Virus genome (UHGV): UHGV-0233562
Origin: a virus
Strand: one strand, 5' to 3'
Length of the DNA: 25,081 nucleotides
Under the pieces are notes generated by a model. It did no database searches, was not told the DNA's origin, and saw only the letters and a list, made by a program, of their open reading frames with translations. A program made the translations under genes and the position numbers. This document shows, in pieces, positions 3,460 to 8,456 of the stretch; within the stretch, counting starts at the first letter, position 1, and every line of letters begins with the position of its first letter.

Positions 3460-4281
3460 ATGAAACTGGAAGATTTACCGAAATACTACTCCCCAAAATC
3501 CCCTGGCCTGACCGATGCATCGGCCTCAACGTCAAAAGATGCGCTGAGTATCACTGATGTGATGGCCGCGCAGGGCATGACACAGAATCGGGCTGAGATG
3601 GGTTTTTCTGCGTTCCTGGGGAAAATGGGCATCAGTATGAATGACAGGGCGCGGGCAACAGAATTACTGGCAGATTATGCACTCAGTCGGTGCGATCGTG
3701 TGGCGGCGTTGAGAAAACTTCCGGCAGAAATAAAACCGGTAGTGATGCGCATTATGGCTTCGTACGCTTTTGAGGATTATGCCCGCAGCGCAGCGAGTAA
3801 AAAGCAGTGCCCTTGTTGCTATGGGGAAAAATTTATTGAAAGCATAGTTTTTACAAACAAGGTCCAGTATCCGGATGGTAAGCCGCCGGTATGGGCAAAG
3901 TGTACGAAAGGTGTGTATCCGTCTTACTGGGAAGAATGGAAAAAAGTCAGGGAGGTGGTAAAAGTTGCCTGTCCGGAGTGTGGCGGAAAGGGTGAGGTTT
4001 CCACCGCCTGTAAGGATTGCCGTGGGCGTGGTGTCGCCATTCATCGTGAAGAGTCGGTAAAACGTGGTATGCCTGTTGTCAGAGACTGCCAGCGTTGTGG
4101 TGGTCGTGGCTATGAAAGACTACCATCAACGGAGGCATTTAATGCTATATGCGAGGTGACAAACCAGATAACACGCGCGTCATGGGAAAAAACAGTTAAG
4201 AAATTCTATGATGCGCTGGTGACCCGGTTTGATATTGAAGAAGCATGGGCTGAGCGGCAGTTAAAAAAGGTAACTAGGTAA
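3460..4281 (+). CDS. Q: Late-gene antitermination protein Q (zinc-binding, phage 21/82-type)
   Basis: 273 aa with CxxC clusters (CPECGGKGE...CKDCRGRG...CQRCGGRG); sits immediately upstream of a promoter/terminator pair and the lysis-head-tail operon, the canonical Q position. Confidence 0.85.
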   Translation: MKLEDLPKYYSPKSPGLTDASASTSKDALSITDVMAAQGMTQNRAEMGFSAFLGKMGISMNDRARATELLADYALSRCDRVAALRKLPAEIKPVVMRIMASYAFEDYARSAASKKQCPCCYGEKFIESIVFTNKVQYPDGKPPVWAKCTKGVYPSYWEEWKKVREVVKVACPECGGKGEVSTACKDCRGRGVAIHREESVKRGMPVVRDCQRCGGRGYERLPSTEAFNAICEVTNQITRASWEKTVKKFYDALVTRFDIEEAWAERQLKKVTR

Positions 4282-4330: not shown

Positions 4331-4362
4331 TTTTTATGCCTGACGTTAGAAGAGTTTCTACA

Positions 4363-4387
4363 ACCCGCCGCCGAGCGGGTTTTTTAT
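4363..4387 (+). terminator. tR'-like rho-independent terminator
   Basis: ACCCGC-CGCCGA-GCGGGT hairpin followed by TTTTTTATT, about 80 nt after Q, consistent with the short terminated transcript that Q modifies. Confidence 0.6.
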
Positions 4388-4424: not shown

Positions 4425-4500
4425 GGCCCTTTAGCTCAGTGGTGAGAGCGAGCGACTCATAATCGCCAGGTCGCTGGTTCAAATCCAGCAAGGGCCACCA
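4425..4500 (+). tRNA. ileZ: tRNA-Ile2 (anticodon CAU, lysidine-type; ileX/ileY-like)
   Basis: GGCCCTTTAGCTCAGTGGTGAGAGCGAGCGACTCATAATCGCCAGGTCGCTGGTTCAAATCCAGCAAGGGCCACCA: 76 nt, 7-bp acceptor stem, CT-CAT-AA anticodon loop, GGTTCAAATCC T-loop, encoded CCA. Near-identical to E. coli ileX as recalled. Confidence 0.85.
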
Positions 4501-4600
4501 TCACAAACCGCCATTAGCTTATCAGGAAGAGCAGACGACACGATAACAGGGTTGTTGGTGCGGGGGCGGGTCCCCGATGGCGGTCCATTATCGGTATTCA

Positions 4601-4677
4601 GCGTTGTTAGCTCAGCCGGACAGAGCAATTGCCTTCTAAGCAATCGGTCACTGGTTCGAATCCAGTACAGCGCGCCA
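4601..4677 (+). tRNA. tRNA-Arg (anticodon UCU, reads AGA/AGG)
   Basis: GCGTTGTTAGCTCAGCCGGACAGAGCAATTGCCTTCTAAGCAATCGGTCACTGGTTCGAATCCAGTACAGCGCGCCA: 77 nt, acceptor stem with one G-U pair, CT-TCT-AA anticodon loop, GGTTCGAATCC T-loop, encoded CCA. Confidence 0.85.
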
Positions 4678-4787
4678 TATTCATTCTTCCAGATTCCTTC
4701 CGGCAGAGCCTTATACTGGAATATACCTGGCTCAGGATATTGTTGAAAACATAATATGTTTGTCAAAAATAAAAGTTCTGTTAAGTA

Positions 4788-5141
4788 TTGATTGAGTGTT
4801 TGTTATACGGTCTAATGGTTTTTTCAGCATTAAATATTTATCATTCATATGGTGTGGGTAGAGTGAATATTGATGAGGCGTCGGGGTGTTTCATCCTTAG
4901 GCAGCGTATTGATATAGTCAATGCAGCACGAGCAAAGGCCTTCAGCCGTTTGACAGTTTTGTTCTGTGCTCCTGATCGTCTTTCGGGAAGAGACGTTATT
5001 ATTCTGAATAGTGATGCTATACAGAGGGTTTGCGATGAGTTCATGGTTGCTAATTCAGAATTATTTGCTCTTGTTCAGGAGTACAACAGAATAGCCAGGA
5101 CCTGTGGTATGGATGAACTTCGGATTACTCATCTGGGGTAG
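4788..5141 (+). CDS. Hypothetical protein (up to 117 aa; start uncertain, TTG 4788 or ATG 4815)
   Basis: Open frame in the cargo locus after the tRNAs; no convincing SD, no family recognised. Confidence 0.35.
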   Translation: MIECLLYGLMVFSALNIYHSYGVGRVNIDEASGCFILRQRIDIVNAARAKAFSRLTVLFCAPDRLSGRDVIILNSDAIQRVCDEFMVANSELFALVQEYNRIARTCGMDELRITHLG

Positions 5142-5674
5142 ATACATATCTGGATTATCACCTGTTACGGTAAAAAGTGATTGCTTACTGTTTTTGTGAA
5201 TGGCATTGCAGCAGCCGGATAATGTCAGTGCTGGCTGACGGTGTGCTGGTGGCGGGTGTGGTGGTTGTTGCTTTCCCGTTGCTGAAAAAGAAAACGCCAG
5301 ACTGTTAGCCGGGTATCAGTTAGCGGGAGAAATTTTTAAATACTTCACAATTCAGGCGGTTGACTGTTCTCTGGTTTGCGGGGAGTTTGTTAAAAGAAAC
5401 TGGCATGGTGAATCCCCCTGTGCGGAGGGGCAATCAGCGAGTAGGTATATGGGATAATCGCGGATTCAGGTGCTGGTACTGAATTCACCGGGAGGCACCC
5501 GGCACCATGCACTTCAATAGATTCTCTCCACATTATGGATATTCTTTCAGAATATCCCACGCAGACTTTGTGTAAATGTTAACAAATGTGCGTTTTATTT
5601 GATCTGATTCGCTGTTTGAGCGTCCAAAACAACGGTATATATAATCCTTTACTATATGACATATGTGAGGAAAA

Positions 5675-6103
5675 ATGGGTTTTCGTAGCGCATCAATTCT
5701 TACGTTGATTATTAGTGGGATTATTATCGGGTGCACTGATGCTGTATCGACAAATTATCATGACCGTACATCATATTACTCCGATAAAGCAATAGAGACA
5801 CAGTATGTGAGTTCATCTGAACGTACTTCTGATGTTAGTGAGGATATCCGTCTGTATGCCCATCAAATCAAGAGCGCCATCGAAAAACAGTTCGGGGATG
5901 CGAGTAAGTATTCAGGAAAAGAGTGTACACTGAGAATGCATATGGCCCCGAATGGCCTTCTACTGGAGGTTAAAAGAGAAAGTGGAGACCTCGATTTATG
6001 TCGTGAAGCGATGAATGCGATAAAGAATGTTGATATACCTGCCCCCCCTTCGCCGGAAGTATATAAAGTATTTCAAAATGGGGTGCTGGATTTTAAACCC
6101 TGA
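5675..6103 (+). CDS. Lipoprotein with TolA C-terminal (domain III)-like domain, 142 aa
   Basis: SD GAGG then ATG 5675; signal peptide MGFRSASILTLIISGIIIG with lipobox IIGC and Thr at +2. C-terminal half HQIKSAIEKQFGDASKYSGKECTLRMHMAPNGLLLEVKRESGDLDLCREAMNAIKNVDIPAPPSPEVYKVFQNGVLDFKP aligns by eye with the E. coli TolA C-terminus (..GQIKSAIESKFYDASSYAGKTCTLRIKLAPDGMLLDIK..ALCQAA..KIPKPPSQAVYEVFKNAPLDFKP), including both Cys and the terminal LDFKP. Confidence 0.85.
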   Translation: MGFRSASILTLIISGIIIGCTDAVSTNYHDRTSYYSDKAIETQYVSSSERTSDVSEDIRLYAHQIKSAIEKQFGDASKYSGKECTLRMHMAPNGLLLEVKRESGDLDLCREAMNAIKNVDIPAPPSPEVYKVFQNGVLDFKP

Positions 6104-6253
6104 TATTTATTGTTTTGTAATAAACGGTTTCGGCTTAGGTTTGTTCTGACACAACTACGGCACTGAGCTAAATTTAGCGGATAGTCAGCTCTGAGCCAGT
6201 GGCGGACGTAACAACTACTATTGCTGAGATTTTAATGGATTGAGGAGCAAGAA

Positions 6254-6649
6254 GTGGGATTAAAGAAAATCGTTATGTTGACTTTTTGGGTCGGTTTTGT
6301 TGCGGGATGCACACCTTTACACCCTTCAGATTGCCACAAAACTACTGCTACAGGTAGTTGCAGTTCAGGACGCTGGGATGATCAGGATGAATGGGGGGCG
6401 CAAGCGCGGGGAATCAGAGCTGCAATTAATGCCAAACTTGATGAGCCGCATAACTGGAAAGGGAAAAAATGCAGGTTGCATATGGAATTCTCTCAGGATG
6501 GCACGGCGTTAAAAATATCTACCAGTAACGGTGATAAAGCCTATTGCGAAGCGATAAAGTCCGCAGCTCATAAAGCCAAATTTCCGGCCTTCAACAATCC
6601 GGAAGTCTACAGAGATTTTCAGAAATCTGGCTTTGACATGCGAGGTTAG
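6254..6649 (+). CDS. Second, divergent TolA C-terminal-domain-like lipoprotein, 131 aa (paralog of 5675..6103)
   Basis: SD GAGGAG 6242-6247, GTG 6254; signal peptide with lipobox VAGC, Thr at +2. C-terminal region KKCRLHMEFSQDGTALKIS...AYCEAIKSAAHKAKFPAFNNPEVYRDFQKSGFD keeps the two-Cys and PEVY..F pattern of the upstream paralog and of TolA domain III. Confidence 0.8.
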   Translation: MGLKKIVMLTFWVGFVAGCTPLHPSDCHKTTATGSCSSGRWDDQDEWGAQARGIRAAINAKLDEPHNWKGKKCRLHMEFSQDGTALKISTSNGDKAYCEAIKSAAHKAKFPAFNNPEVYRDFQKSGFDMRG

Positions 6650-6774
6650 CTCTTCAATTACTATATCTCATTCATAGCAAACTGACAGATTTGATGATGT
6701 TCTATATACGAAACCTGTGATGTCAAGTCTGAGCTAATACAAATAAACATAATATCAGAGAAATACATTTTATT

Positions 6775-6798
6775 AGCTCGCTACGGCGAGCTTTTTAT
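6775..6798 (+). terminator. Rho-independent terminator closing the TolA-like cargo unit
   Basis: AGCTCGC-TACG-GCGAGCT hairpin followed by TTTTT. Confidence 0.5.
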
Positions 6799-6900
6799 AT
6801 TGCATCGTCTCCAGCATATATATCAATTAAGGCTCTGATTGATGTGTCTGGAAGCCTACACATAATAACTATGCCATCCGTTCCGTGCGGAGGTGAGGCT

Positions 6901-7116
6901 ATGAAATCCATGGACAAAATTTCAACAGGCATTGCCTACGGCACCTCCGCAGGCAGTGCTGGCTACTGGTTTTTACAGCTGCTCGATAAAGTCACGCCCT
7001 CACAGTGGGCAGCAATAGGTGTGCTGGGTAGCCTGGTATTTGGCCTGCTGACGTACCTGACAAATCTTTATTTCAAGATTAAAGAAGACAGGCGTAAGGC
7101 TGCGAGAGGAGAGTAA
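6901..7116 (+). CDS. S: Class II holin (S21-type pinholin) with dual-start motif
   Basis: SD GGAGGTGAGG then ATG 6901; [61 protein letters not shown]: two TM segments, charged C-terminus, Met1-Lys-Ser-Met4 dual start typical of holin/antiholin pairs. Resembles phage 21 S as recalled. Confidence 0.85.
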
Positions 7117-7120
7117 TCCA

Positions 7121-7428
7121 ATGACTCAATACTATGAACTGGTTGTGAAAGGAGTCCGTAATTTTGAGAATAAAGTTACGGTAACTGTAGCCTTACAGGA
7201 CAAAGAACGCTTTGACGGTGAAATTTTTGGCCTGGATGTCGCCATGGACCGTGTTGAAGGAGCTGCGCTGGAGTTTTATGAGGCAGCAGCCAGAATGAGC
7301 GTCCGGCAAGTCTTCCTGGAAGTAGCAGAAAAATTGTCAGAAAAAGTTGAGTCTTATCTGCAGCATCAGTACTCCTTTAAGATTGAAAATCCTGCCAATA
7401 AGCACGAGCGTCCTCATCATAAATATCT

Positions 7429-7432
<4 letters not shown>
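7121..7432 (+). CDS. ydfR: Conserved prophage protein of unknown function between holin and endolysin (103 aa, YdfR-like)
   Basis: SD GGAGAG then ATG 7121; same size and position as Qin ydfR as I recall it. Function unknown. Confidence 0.65.

Positions 7433-8456
<1,024 letters not shown>

What the first reader, a model, noticed from the sequence alone, without database searches (positions are those of the whole stretch)
5675..6649. Tandem pair of prophage lipoproteins that mimic the TolA C-terminal domain
Two adjacent, paralogous ORFs (142 and 131 aa) each combine a lipoprotein signal peptide (lipobox IIGC / VAGC, Thr at +2, predicting outer-membrane sorting) with a C-terminal domain that aligns by eye with TolA domain III, including both cysteines and, in the first copy, the terminal LDFKP. 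TolA domain III is the periplasmic contact point for Pal/TolB/CpoB and the docking site used by group A colicins and filamentous-phage g3p. A membrane-tethered free copy of that domain in a prophage cargo slot is a plausible decoy or superinfection-exclusion factor, or alternatively a modulator of the host Tol-Pal system. I am not aware of a characterised system of this kind. The two copies are highly diverged from each other, which could reflect different ligands.
Basis: partly seen in the sequence, partly recalled or inferred. Interest (0 to 1): 0.8.

Follow-up and report, generated by a model that had tools for sequence, protein, structure and literature searches.

The report
Prophage lipoproteins copying TolA's tip
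A prophage carries two small outer-membrane lipoproteins that are free-standing copies of the TolA domain used by colicins and filamentous phages to enter E. coli; they probably act as unpowered decoys or competitors for TolA's partners, but nobody has tested this.

Summary
ORF1 (5675-6103, 142 aa) and ORF2 (6254-6649, 131 aa) each have a canonical lipoprotein signal (Cys20, Cys19; no Asp at +2), a 25-34-residue low-confidence linker and a complete TolA domain III. Pfam TolA_C E-values are 8e-23 and 1.3e-14. The models superpose on E. coli TolAIII at 0.7 and 1.2 A. Identity to TolA 334-421 is 58% and 31%, ungapped.

Neither has TolA domains I or II, so they are not TolA, although PGAP names ORF1 "tolA". 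They lie between Q and the holin, with a promoter-like site upstream and a strong terminator before the holin.

The two are not a recent duplication (27-28% identity) and occur apart elsewhere. ORF1-type genes sit alone in the same slot of other E. coli prophages. ORF2-type genes follow the nikA-nikB relaxase genes on about 600 plasmids, and are single chromosomal genes in about 27 other Enterobacterales species, sometimes next to PARIS, Septu or Gabija. The pair is in 775 of 5,426 complete E. coli genomes.

No characterisation was found. My best reading is an outer-membrane-tethered, unpowered TolAIII competitor: most likely a decoy for group A colicins and filamentous-phage g3p. The main rival is Tol-Pal interference that loosens the outer membrane at lysis.

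The parts
3460..4281 (+). Late antiterminator Q (context: start of the late operon)
   Evidence: 273-aa ORF. Annotated as antitermination protein in the identical E. coli locus and in phage mEp460_ev081.
4362..4381 (+). tR'-like intrinsic terminator just downstream of Q
   Evidence: 7-bp stem with 5 G-C pairs plus a T-run. Fold -11.2 kcal/mol, though z is only -1.05.
4425..4677 (+). Two phage tRNA genes: CAT anticodon (called Met by ARAGORN, Ile by PGAP) at 4425-4500, and Arg-TCT at 4601-4677
5177..5308 (+). Small DUF3927 ORF, another cargo gene of the slot
   Evidence: Pfam PF13064, E 1.7e-27. Annotated by PGAP.
5616..5645 (+). Best sigma-70-like promoter match in the region (TTGAGC-18-TATAAT), 30 nt upstream of ORF1
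   Evidence: 10 of 12 consensus matches. Conserved with one change in the 90%-identical allele of other prophages. This is a consensus match only; activity was not shown.
5675..6103 (+). ORF1, 142 aa: signal peptide with lipobox IIGC (Cys20 = 5732-5734), low-confidence linker (aa 21-54), TolA domain III (aa 55-142 = 5837-6100)
6219..6253 (+). Conserved leader block with Shine-Dalgarno GAGGAG (6242-6247) that travels with ORF2-type genes in prophage, plasmid and chromosomal settings
   Evidence: Alignment of the upstream regions from the window, an IncK plasmid, Enterobacter and Serratia. It supports the GTG at 6254 as the start (ATG in the plasmid copy) rather than PGAP's ATG at 6275.
6254..6649 (+). 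ORF2, 131 aa: signal peptide with lipobox VAGC (Cys19 = 6308-6310), Cys-containing linker (C27, C36), TolA domain III (aa 45-131 = 6386-6646)
6775..6800 (+). Intrinsic terminator between ORF2 and the holin gene
   Evidence: 7-bp stem with 5 G-C pairs, 4-nt loop, T-run. -13 kcal/mol, z -4.2, 0 of 200 shuffles fold as well. No comparable structure lies between ORF1 and ORF2.
6901..8456 (+). Lysis cassette: class II holin (6901-7116), DUF1327/YdfR (7121-7432), lysozyme (7429-7962), Rz-like DUF2514 (7959-8456)
   Evidence: Pfam Phage_holin_2_1 at 1.1e-35 and DUF1327 at 8.8e-51. PGAP annotation of the identical locus.

Best explanation
Each gene encodes a lipoprotein tethered to the periplasmic face of the outer membrane by its N-terminal lipid. 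A 25-34-residue tether carries a complete TolA domain III.

The proteins lack TolA's inner-membrane anchor (domain I) and long helical domain II. They therefore cannot connect to the TolQ-TolR motor. All they can do is bind proteins that normally bind the tip of TolA.

They would sit just under the outer membrane, where the translocation domains of group A colicins and the N1 domain of filamentous-phage g3p first appear. There they would capture these ligands by edge-strand (beta-strand) addition, in a dead-end complex that is not coupled to energy. Uptake would be blocked or slowed. This would make them a receptor-domain decoy that benefits the lysogen or plasmid host.

The native TolA-TolB contact is about 40-fold weaker than the invader contacts. 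Modest expression could therefore intercept invaders without disabling the host's own Tol-Pal system.

ORF1 is 58% identical to E. coli TolAIII and keeps LDFKP, so it is the close mimic of the E. coli domain. ORF2 is 31% identical and belongs to a lineage spread across Enterobacterales. It probably has a different ligand range.

What is shown: the domain architecture, the fold, the absence of domains I and II, the genomic settings and the distribution. What is inferred: lipidation and outer-membrane sorting, expression in the lysogen, ligand binding and the protective phenotype.
For: Architecture and fold. Lipobox rule and absence of Asp at +2. TolA_C profile hits. PDB sequence hits. AF2 models with low-confidence N-terminal 44-54 residues and a confident TolAIII fold at 0.7 and 1.2 A rmsd.

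Not TolA. Only the last ~100 positions of the full-length TolA profiles are matched, and NF007065 scores 105 and 54 against a cut-off of 213.

Binding surface. g3p-N1 binds the first helix of TolAIII and strand beta3. ColN and TolB use beta3 through backbone hydrogen bonds at D418 and K420. Kd is about 1 uM for ColN and g3p-N1 and about 40 uM for TolB (PMC4339652). ORF1 keeps 12 of 17 helix residues and 5 of 7 beta3 residues, including LDFKP, with no proline introduced.

Selection. Against K-12 tolA, third codon positions are only 40% identical and blastn detects no similarity, yet 58% of residues are kept. This is old divergence under purifying selection, not a decaying fragment.

Cassette features. 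Promoter-like site at 5616-5645, a strong terminator at 6775-6792 ahead of the holin, and lower G+C (0.42-0.46 against 0.50 for the window).

Distribution on mobile elements and in conflict loci.
- The pair is in 775 of 5,426 complete E. coli genomes.
- ORF1-type alleles occupy the same Q-S slot alone in other prophages.
- An ORF2-type gene lies directly after nikA-nikB on I-complex conjugative plasmids. The filamentous phage IF1, which infects cells carrying I-type pili (my knowledge), uses TolAIII as co-receptor (PDB 2x9a, listed).
- A third lipoprotein-TolAIII type on Klebsiella IncF plasmids lies 3.4 kb from Gabija.
- Chromosomal ORF2-type genes sit next to PARIS AriAB, Septu PtuA, an OLD-type ATPase and an NsnA-like/HEPN pair.

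Precedent. Periplasmic g3p-N1 gives colicin A resistance and a 4-log drop in phage uptake, attributed to TolA sequestration (PMC10424213). From my own knowledge, periplasmic TolAIII gives tolerance to group A colicins (Levengood-Freyermuth et al. 1993, J Bacteriol 175:222; I could not read it here).
Against: There is no experimental evidence for expression, lipidation, localisation, ligand binding or protection.

The promoter is only a consensus match.

The genes lie inside the Q-dependent late operon, and this allele always travels with the holin (77 of 77 loci). That would equally fit a role at lysis.

Free periplasmic TolAIII is known to make the outer membrane leaky when overproduced (PMC6195910), so a decoy has a potential cost.

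ORF2 is divergent at the g3p/ColN/TolB interface (5 of 17 helix residues, 1 of 7 beta3 residues), so its ligand may not be a classical TolA ligand at all.

Neither protein matches any PADLOC defence model. Most chromosomal neighbours of ORF2-type genes are ordinary metabolic or regulatory genes. The defence-gene adjacency is anecdotal: about 4 of 27 species loci, plus one Serratia locus and a related Klebsiella plasmid gene.
Confidence: 0.45

Rival explanations
1. Lysis or release helper. The proteins are made in bulk from the Q-antiterminated late transcript just before the holin, endolysin and spanin act. The tethered TolAIII copies compete with TolA for TolB (and perhaps Pal or CpoB). This switches off Tol-Pal, loosens the outer membrane and increases vesiculation, which speeds or completes lysis and virion or cargo release. 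It uses the same biochemistry as the decoy model, but the selected effect is on the producing cell.
For: The genes lie between Q/tR' and the holin in the late operon. In IMG/VR prophage contigs this allele is followed by the holin in all loci that extend far enough, while the upstream Q module varies. ORF1-type alleles take the position that stx occupies in Stx-phage-like layouts (my knowledge of those layouts), ahead of the SASA-esterase (DUF1737/SASA)-DUF1378-DUF826-holin block. Exported TolAIII overproduction is used in biotechnology to make E. coli release periplasmic proteins (PMC6195910). TolA beta3 mutants that lose TolB binding have a full tol phenotype (PMC4339652).
Against: A strong terminator separates ORF2 from the holin, and a promoter-like site precedes ORF1. 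This is the layout of a cassette meant to be expressed without the lysis genes. ORF2-type genes sit in plasmid relaxase operons and as single chromosomal genes with no lysis genes nearby, where chronic outer-membrane damage would be costly. The phage already has an Rz-type gene for the outer-membrane step.
Confidence: 0.25
2. Envelope-physiology or conjugation accessory. The domain acts as an outer-membrane-anchored docking site for a host or plasmid periplasmic protein. Candidates include TolB, Pal, CpoB or a component of the conjugation machinery. This would tune envelope integrity, cell-surface properties, mating or host interaction, by analogy with the prophage and plasmid lipoproteins Bor and TraT, rather than blocking invaders.
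For: ORF2-type genes are well conserved (65-89%) as single chromosomal genes in about 27 Enterobacterales species, mostly among ordinary metabolic or regulatory neighbours. On I-complex plasmids the gene is co-oriented with, and about 70-100 nt downstream of, the relaxase gene. ORF2-type proteins carry a conserved extra Cys pair in the 'linker', which suggests a structured element with its own role. A large, diverse family of 120-150-aa lipoprotein-TolAIII proteins exists beyond mobile elements.
Against: The chromosomal copies have no conserved synteny, which argues against a fixed housekeeping partnership. The family recurs on prophages and plasmids and beside defence systems. ORF1 closely mimics E. 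coli TolAIII specifically.
Confidence: 0.2
3. Inert debris: fragments of a tolA gene picked up by the phage and carried without function.
For: PGAP labels ORF1 'tolA'. Prophage cargo slots do accumulate fragments; a partial pseudogene is annotated just upstream.
Against: Both ORFs are intact and at least 99% conserved in 775 genomes. A purpose-built lipoprotein signal replaces TolA domains I and II. Synonymous sites are saturated relative to tolA while 58% of residues are kept. Divergent alleles keep the same architecture. Hundreds of plasmids and many species carry the ORF2 type.
Confidence: 0.03

Closest known systems
TolA domain III (TolAIII) of the E. coli Tol-Pal system
   Same: Same fold and domain boundaries, the same disulfide pair and the same C-terminus. 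ORF1 is 58% and ORF2 31% identical over TolA 334-421 without gaps. ORF1 keeps the beta3 strand LDFKP used by g3p-N1, colicin N and TolB.
   Different: There is no inner-membrane anchor and no helical domain II, so no link to TolQ-TolR or the proton motive force. Instead there is a lipoprotein signal and a short tether, which predicts anchoring to the opposite (outer) membrane. The genes are on a prophage, not in the tolQRA-tolB-pal operon.
Laboratory constructs that export free TolAIII (signal sequence-TolAIII) or g3p-N1 to the periplasm
   Same: These are also an unpowered TolAIII, or a TolAIII-binding domain, in the periplasm. They perturb Tol functions: outer-membrane leakiness (PMC6195910), and colicin A resistance with a 4-log lower phage uptake (PMC10424213).
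   Different: They are soluble, artificial and overproduced. The window's proteins are natural, lipid-tethered, diverged and carried by mobile elements.
Prophage and plasmid exclusion lipoproteins (T5 Llp, Cor of phi80/N15/mEp167, F-plasmid TraT) - comparison from my own knowledge
   Same: Small lipoproteins encoded by mobile elements that protect the carrier cell at the envelope stage. They are often found in cargo positions.
   Different: As I recall, Llp and Cor inactivate the outer-membrane receptor FhuA, and TraT acts at the surface. None is a copy of a host receptor domain. No sequence relationship: Pfam finds only TolA and TonB_2 in ORF1, and TolA plus a sub-threshold But2 match (E 0.15) in ORF2.
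Superinfection immunity of filamentous phages through g3p (from the literature read)
   Same: It targets the same TolA-g3p contact to stop TolA-dependent entry.
   Different: The logic is the mirror image. g3p occupies the host's TolA. The proteins here would occupy the invader's TolA-binding site.
PHROG family phrog_5772 and the NCBI name 'cell envelope integrity TolA C-terminal domain-containing protein'
   Same: Both window proteins are full-length members (E 1.8e-61 and 6.7e-65) and carry these database names.
   Different: These are labels only. The PHROG is 'unknown function', and I found no paper using the NCBI name.

Membership tests
Pfam TolA_C (PF06519) domain family | Profile score above the gathering threshold (25 bits) over most of the 96-position model | tested here: met
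   ORF1 80.9 bits, model positions 4-96. ORF2 54.6 bits, model positions 10-92.
Pfam TolA_C (PF06519) domain family | TolAIII fold (helices packed on a three-stranded sheet) with the conserved cysteine pair | tested here: met
   AF2 plus Foldseek give rmsd 0.7 A and 1.2 A to E. coli TolAIII over 86 residues. Cysteines C84/C109 and C73/C98 are invariant in the alignments.
Bona fide TolA (Tol-Pal system protein; NCBIfam NF007065 / TIGR02794) | N-terminal transmembrane domain I that docks to TolQ-TolR | tested here: not met
   The N-terminus is a cleavable lipoprotein signal. Only profile positions 265-362 or 293-386 are matched.
Bona fide TolA (Tol-Pal system protein; NCBIfam NF007065 / TIGR02794) | Long Ala/Lys-rich helical domain II spanning the periplasm | tested here: not met
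   Only 25-34 low-confidence residues lie between the lipid-anchor Cys and domain III. K-12 TolA has about 290 residues there.
Bona fide TolA (Tol-Pal system protein; NCBIfam NF007065 / TIGR02794) | Whole-protein score above the curated equivalog cut-off | tested here: inconclusive
   NF007065: 105 and 54 bits against a cut-off of 213, so not met. TIGR02794: ORF1 73.9 bits exceeds 59.45, ORF2 47.2 bits does not. The TIGR02794 pass rests on domain III alone and explains PGAP's misleading 'tolA' name.
Bona fide TolA (Tol-Pal system protein; NCBIfam NF007065 / TIGR02794) | Location in the ybgC-tolQRA-tolB-pal-cpoB cluster | tested here: not met
   The genes lie between phage Q and the holin. The K-12 tolA locus is shown for comparison.
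Bacterial lipoproteins (PROSITE PS51257-type signal), outer-membrane sorted | Positive n-region, hydrophobic core, lipobox [LVI..][AST..][GAS]C with Cys at position 15-35 | tested here: met
   ORF1 IIGC with Cys20, ORF2 VAGC with Cys19; K or R within the first 7 residues. The lipobox is conserved across alleles and distant relatives.
Bacterial lipoproteins (PROSITE PS51257-type signal), outer-membrane sorted | No Asp at +2 (Lol-avoidance signal absent) | tested here: met
   +2 is Thr in both window proteins. In the close ORF1- and ORF2-type alleles it is Thr, Ala or Ser, and I saw no Asp at +2 among the more distant lipobox-bearing relatives.
Bacterial lipoproteins (PROSITE PS51257-type signal), outer-membrane sorted | Actual lipidation and outer-membrane localisation | not testable with these tools
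   Needs globomycin or palmitate labelling and membrane fractionation.
Prophage 'moron' / lysogenic-conversion cassette | Own promoter and terminator, inserted between conserved phage modules, atypical composition | tested here: inconclusive
   The terminator is strong (z -4.2). G+C is 0.42-0.46 against 0.50 for the window. The slot holds different cargo in other prophages. The promoter is only a 10-of-12 consensus match.
Prophage 'moron' / lysogenic-conversion cassette | Expression from the repressed prophage | not testable with these tools
   No transcript data could be tied to this gene. A literature lead for a 'TolA'-type prophage gene in EDL933 could not be verified.
Known anti-phage defence systems (PADLOC-DB v2) | Match to a curated defence-protein model | tested here: not met
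   0 families for either protein.
Known exclusion lipoproteins (TraT and similar families represented in Pfam) | Sequence membership | tested here: not met
   The Pfam scan up to E = 10 returns only TolA, TonB_2 and a chance-level But2 hit.

The most novel reading that the evidence does not exclude
Lipid-tethered copies of TolA domain III are a widespread, unrecognised class of receptor-domain decoys carried by prophages, conjugative plasmids and chromosomal islets in Enterobacterales. They would neutralise TolA-dependent invaders (group A colicins and related bacteriocins, and filamentous phages) in the outer periplasm. On I-complex and IncF plasmids they would specifically shield pilus-bearing donor cells from pilus-specific filamentous phages. 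The prophage pair would combine a close E. coli TolAIII mimic with a broad-lineage variant to widen the range of ligands covered.
Probability: 0.35. Interest if true: 0.8.

Novelty: new variant of a known kind. Interest (0 to 1): 0.62.

Why it matters
TolA domain III is the shared periplasmic entry point for group A colicins and for filamentous phages, including the cholera-toxin phage's route in Vibrio. If mobile elements carry unpowered, outer-membrane-tethered copies of that domain, this would be a simple kind of envelope-level protection: mimic the host receptor domain instead of removing or masking the receptor.

It would be common. The pair is present in about 14% of complete E. coli genomes (775 of 5,426), and ORF2-type genes sit on about 600 sequenced plasmids next to the relaxase genes. 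It could affect colicin- and phage-based antimicrobials, phage-display hosts, plasmid-targeting 'male-specific' phage strategies, and the interpretation of Tol-Pal phenotypes in natural isolates.

If instead the proteins disable Tol-Pal at lysis, that would add a new accessory step to the outer-membrane stage of phage lysis.

Either way, the current automatic annotation of ORF1 as 'tolA' in about 900 genomes is misleading and should be corrected.

Tried and rejected
- Recent capture from host tolA: rejected. blastn with word size 7 finds no similarity between either ORF and K-12 tolA. The domain is 58% identical at the nucleotide level, with 40% identity at third positions.
- Tandem duplication: rejected. 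The two share 27-28% identity, and each type is found without the other.
- Known defence family: PADLOC gives no hit.
- Conserved chromosomal synteny for ORF2-type genes: none beyond a glutathione peroxidase neighbour in a few Enterobacter, Klebsiella and Kluyvera loci.
- Leading-region (early-entry) gene on plasmids: considered and set aside. ardA lies on the other side of the nikA promoter region, beyond the divergently transcribed mobC, so I take that side to be the leading region. The gene is at the 3' end of the nikA-nikB unit. The direction of transfer was not tested.
- Literature: ten full-text searches found no study of these proteins. A paper reports a CP-933O 'TolA'-type gene (EDL933_2012) induced 32-fold by ciprofloxacin (PMC11125564). 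The 50-kb EDL933 region I inspected held no TolA-like gene, so the link is unverified.
- The classic paper on periplasmic TolAIII (Levengood-Freyermuth 1993) could not be opened. Its colicin-tolerance result is cited from memory only.
- The 117-aa TTG ORF at 4788-5141 has no Pfam hit and is not annotated, so I treated it as not a gene.
Full report
**What is in the sequence**

The window carries a lambdoid prophage of the Qin/DLP12 type. The gene order is hokD, rem, ydfU, rusA, Q (3460-4281), a tR'-like terminator (4362-4381), two tRNA genes, a small DUF3927 ORF, the two ORFs of the finding, a class II holin, ydfR, lysozyme and an Rz-like gene. After these come cspI, gnsB, terminase and the head and tail genes.

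Each starts with a textbook lipoprotein signal. ORF1 is MGFRSASILTLIISGIIIGC|TDAV with Cys20. ORF2 is MGLKKIVMLTFWVGFVAGC|TPLH with Cys19. Both pass the PROSITE-type rule, and neither has Asp at +2, so Lol-dependent transfer to the outer membrane is predicted.

For ORF2, a strong Shine-Dalgarno sequence and a 35-nt leader are conserved in prophage, plasmid and chromosomal copies. This supports the GTG at 6254 as the start rather than PGAP's internal ATG.

**The TolA similarity is real and covers a whole domain**

- Pfam TolA_C scores are 80.9 bits (E 8e-23) for ORF1 and 54.6 bits (E 1.3e-14) for ORF2, against a threshold of 25.
- phmmer against PDB sequences returns only TolA chains, at 1.9e-27 and 5.2e-9.
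- AlphaFold models give a low-confidence N-terminal 52 (ORF1) or 42 (ORF2) residues, followed by a confident helix-helix-strand-strand-helix-helix-strand domain.
- Foldseek puts E. coli TolAIII crystal structures first: 2x9a_B at rmsd 0.7 A, 86 residues and 59% identity for ORF1, and 3qdp at rmsd 1.2 A, 86 residues and 31% identity for ORF2.

Aligned without gaps to K-12 TolA residues 334-421, ORF1 shares 51 of 88 residues and ORF2 27 of 88. Both keep the disulfide cysteines and both stop at the position of TolA's last residue.

Both proteins are full-length members of phrog_5772, which has unknown function.

**They are not TolA**

Only the last ~100 positions of the full-length TolA profiles are matched. 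There is no transmembrane domain I and no helical domain II. The genes are not in the tol-pal cluster.

ORF1 nevertheless exceeds the TIGR02794 cut-off on domain III alone (73.9 against 59.45 bits). This is why PGAP calls it 'tolA' in hundreds of genomes.

**Origin and relationship**

The two proteins share 28% identity overall and 24 of 88 residues in the domain. ORF1 has no nucleotide-level similarity to K-12 tolA. Third codon positions are 40% identical while 58% of amino acids are retained. This is therefore not a recent pick-up or a decaying fragment. It is an old lineage held under purifying selection.

**Distribution**

- *The pair.* It is at least 99% identical in 775 of 5,426 complete E. 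coli genomes and in one deposited phage, mEp460_ev081.
- *IMG/VR.* In 77 of 77 loci with enough flank, ORF2 follows ORF1 (by 154 nt in 76 of them), followed by the holin wherever the flank reaches it. The upstream Q module varies.
- *ORF1-type alleles.* Alleles at 90%, 73% and 65% identity are named only from E. coli and Shigella. For the 90% and 65% alleles I looked at the contexts: they sit alone in the same Q-to-S slot. One layout (Q ... TolA-like, DUF1737/SASA esterase, DUF1378, DUF826, holin) resembles, from my knowledge, that of Stx phages with stx replaced.
- *ORF2-type on plasmids.* These genes have a separate life. At about 88% identity they lie 70-100 nt downstream of nikA-nikB on about 600 plasmids of the I complex (IncK2/Z, IncI1/B/O typing). 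The pO157-type plasmids carry it after a truncated nikB.
- *ORF2-type on chromosomes.* At 65-89% identity they are single chromosomal genes in about 27 other Enterobacterales species: Enterobacter, Leclercia, Klebsiella, Raoultella, Citrobacter, Pluralibacter, Pantoea, Buttiauxella, Lelliottia, Kluyvera, Yokenella, Rouxiella and Serratia. There is no conserved synteny and there are no phage or relaxase genes nearby.
- *A third type.* A 145-aa protein with lipobox ITAC, 32-35% identical, sits on about 300 Klebsiella and Enterobacter plasmids beside a thioredoxin-fold gene.
- *The wider family.* An exhaustive HMMER search with ORF2 found 130 cluster representatives. Many are 120-150-aa proteins with a lipobox. 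Lipoprotein-TolAIII is therefore a broad, unstudied architecture.

**Clues to function**

(a) *Position and signals.* A 10-of-12 sigma-70 match lies 30 nt upstream of ORF1. No terminator lies between the ORFs. A strong terminator (-13 kcal/mol, z -4.2) lies between ORF2 and the holin. G+C is below that of the phage. This is the layout of a cargo cassette that can be expressed from the repressed prophage without reading into the lysis genes. It would also be transcribed heavily by Q-modified polymerase late in infection.

(b) *Binding surfaces.* Published work shows that g3p-N1 contacts the first TolAIII helix and strand beta3. Colicin N and the TolB N-terminus add a strand to beta3 through backbone hydrogen bonds (D418, K420). 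Colicin A uses beta2 on the opposite edge. Affinities are about 1 uM for ColN and g3p-N1 and about 40 uM for TolB (PMC4339652). ORF1 keeps 12 of 17 helix residues and LDFKP in beta3. ORF2 keeps the strands but few side chains.

(c) *Neighbours.* Chromosomal ORF2-type genes lie next to a fused PARIS AriAB (1e-180), a Septu PtuA (6e-140), an OLD-type ATPase-Toprim protein and a weaker OLD/GajA-like ATPase. In Serratia the neighbours are an NsnA-like/HEPN pair. The Klebsiella plasmid type is 3.4 kb from Gabija. Two loci have bacteriocin-type ABC exporters (one with what looks by eye like a C39 peptidase domain) nearby. Most other neighbours are ordinary genes, so this is suggestive only.

(d) *Precedent.* Periplasmic g3p-N1 gives colicin A resistance and a 4-log loss of phage uptake, attributed to TolA sequestration (PMC10424213). 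Exported TolAIII makes cells leak periplasmic proteins (PMC6195910).

**Most likely mechanism**

The shared, well-supported core is an unpowered TolAIII held at the outer membrane that competes with TolA for its ligands. I favour a decoy role (confidence 0.45). The tether would place the domain where colicin translocation domains and g3p-N1 first emerge. Binding there cannot be coupled to TolQR. The 40-fold affinity gap would let modest amounts trap invaders without stripping TolB from TolA.

The plasmid setting fits this. Cells that display conjugative pili are the targets of pilus-specific filamentous phages. The crystal structure 2x9a shows that phage IF1 uses TolAIII as co-receptor; that IF1 is specific for I-type pili is my own knowledge.

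The main rival (0.25) uses the same biochemistry for a different end. Bulk late expression would disable Tol-Pal and loosen the outer membrane at lysis. The two are not exclusive, because the outcome may depend on dose.

A role as an envelope or conjugation accessory (0.2) remains open, especially for ORF2, whose linker carries two extra conserved cysteines (C27, C36). Inert debris is effectively excluded (0.03).

**Novelty and verdict**

The TolA similarity is already visible in database names, so it is not a discovery in itself. I found no experimental or comparative study of these proteins in ten full-text searches.

Relative to known exclusion lipoproteins (Llp, Cor, TraT) and to g3p-mediated immunity, a lipid-tethered copy of the host's own receptor domain would be a new variant of a known kind of system.

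Interest is moderate to high (0.62), because the hypothesis is specific, cheap to test and concerns a cassette present in about one in seven sequenced E. coli.

Noticed in passing
window 5675-6103, and about 900 E. coli genomes: PGAP assigns the gene symbol 'tolA' and the product 'cell envelope integrity protein TolA' to this 142-aa prophage lipoprotein. Its domain III alone exceeds the TIGR02794 equivalog cut-off (73.9 against 59.45 bits). This is a systematic misannotation.
   Followed up: partly
window 6308-6385 (ORF2 aa 19-44): ORF2-type proteins have two extra cysteines just after the lipid-anchor Cys (C19-x7-C27-x8-C36, motif CxPLHPSxCHKTTATGSC). They are conserved in several relatives down to about 40% identity, but AlphaFold models the region with pLDDT below 50. 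This may be a structured disulfide loop rather than a plain tether.
   Followed up: no
window 6219-6253; L003, L005, L009: A ~35-nt leader including the Shine-Dalgarno sequence travels with ORF2-type genes in the prophage, an IncK plasmid, and the Enterobacter and Serratia chromosomes, although the wider contexts are unrelated. This suggests the gene moves as a very small unit.
   Followed up: partly
L003 8965-9396; L014, L015, L002: On I-complex plasmids (IncK2/Z and IncI1/B/O typing) the ORF2-type gene is the last backbone gene after nikA-nikB. Resistance genes and IS elements are inserted just beyond it. The pO157-type plasmid keeps it after a truncated nikB and upstream of toxB.
   Followed up: partly
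L013 255-7246 (Klebsiella IncF plasmid): A third lipoprotein-TolAIII type (145 aa) is paired with a thioredoxin-fold (DsbA/TraF-like) gene and lies 3.4 kb from a complete Gabija system, GajA at 2e-217 and GajB at 5e-172.
   Followed up: partly
L110, L122, L124, L132, L009; L133, L134: Genes within about 1 kb of chromosomal ORF2-type genes include a fused PARIS AriAB, a Septu PtuA, OLD-type ATPases and an NsnA-like/HEPN pair. In Rouxiella and Serratia grimesii they include bacteriocin-type ABC exporters; the Rouxiella one has an N-terminal stretch that looks by eye like a C39 peptidase domain.
   Followed up: partly
window 4425-4500 and 4601-4677: Two tRNA genes sit directly after Q/tR'. ARAGORN reads the first as tRNA-Met (CAT), while PGAP calls it tRNA-Ile, presumably the lysidine-modified type. 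The second is tRNA-Arg (TCT). The same pair precedes different cargo in an EDL933 prophage.
   Followed up: no
window 4700-6843, compared with L016-L023 and L105: The Q-to-holin interval is a cargo hot spot. In related prophages it holds an AraC-type regulator and a TfpB-like gene, PmrD, an IS200-type transposase, a TerB-family gene, a SASA-family esterase, and DUF826/DUF1378 genes, in various combinations with or without a TolA-like gene.
   Followed up: no
window 7121-7432: A DUF1327 (YdfR) gene of unknown function is wedged between the holin and the lysozyme. It is present in only some of the otherwise identical cassettes in IMG/VR.
   Followed up: no
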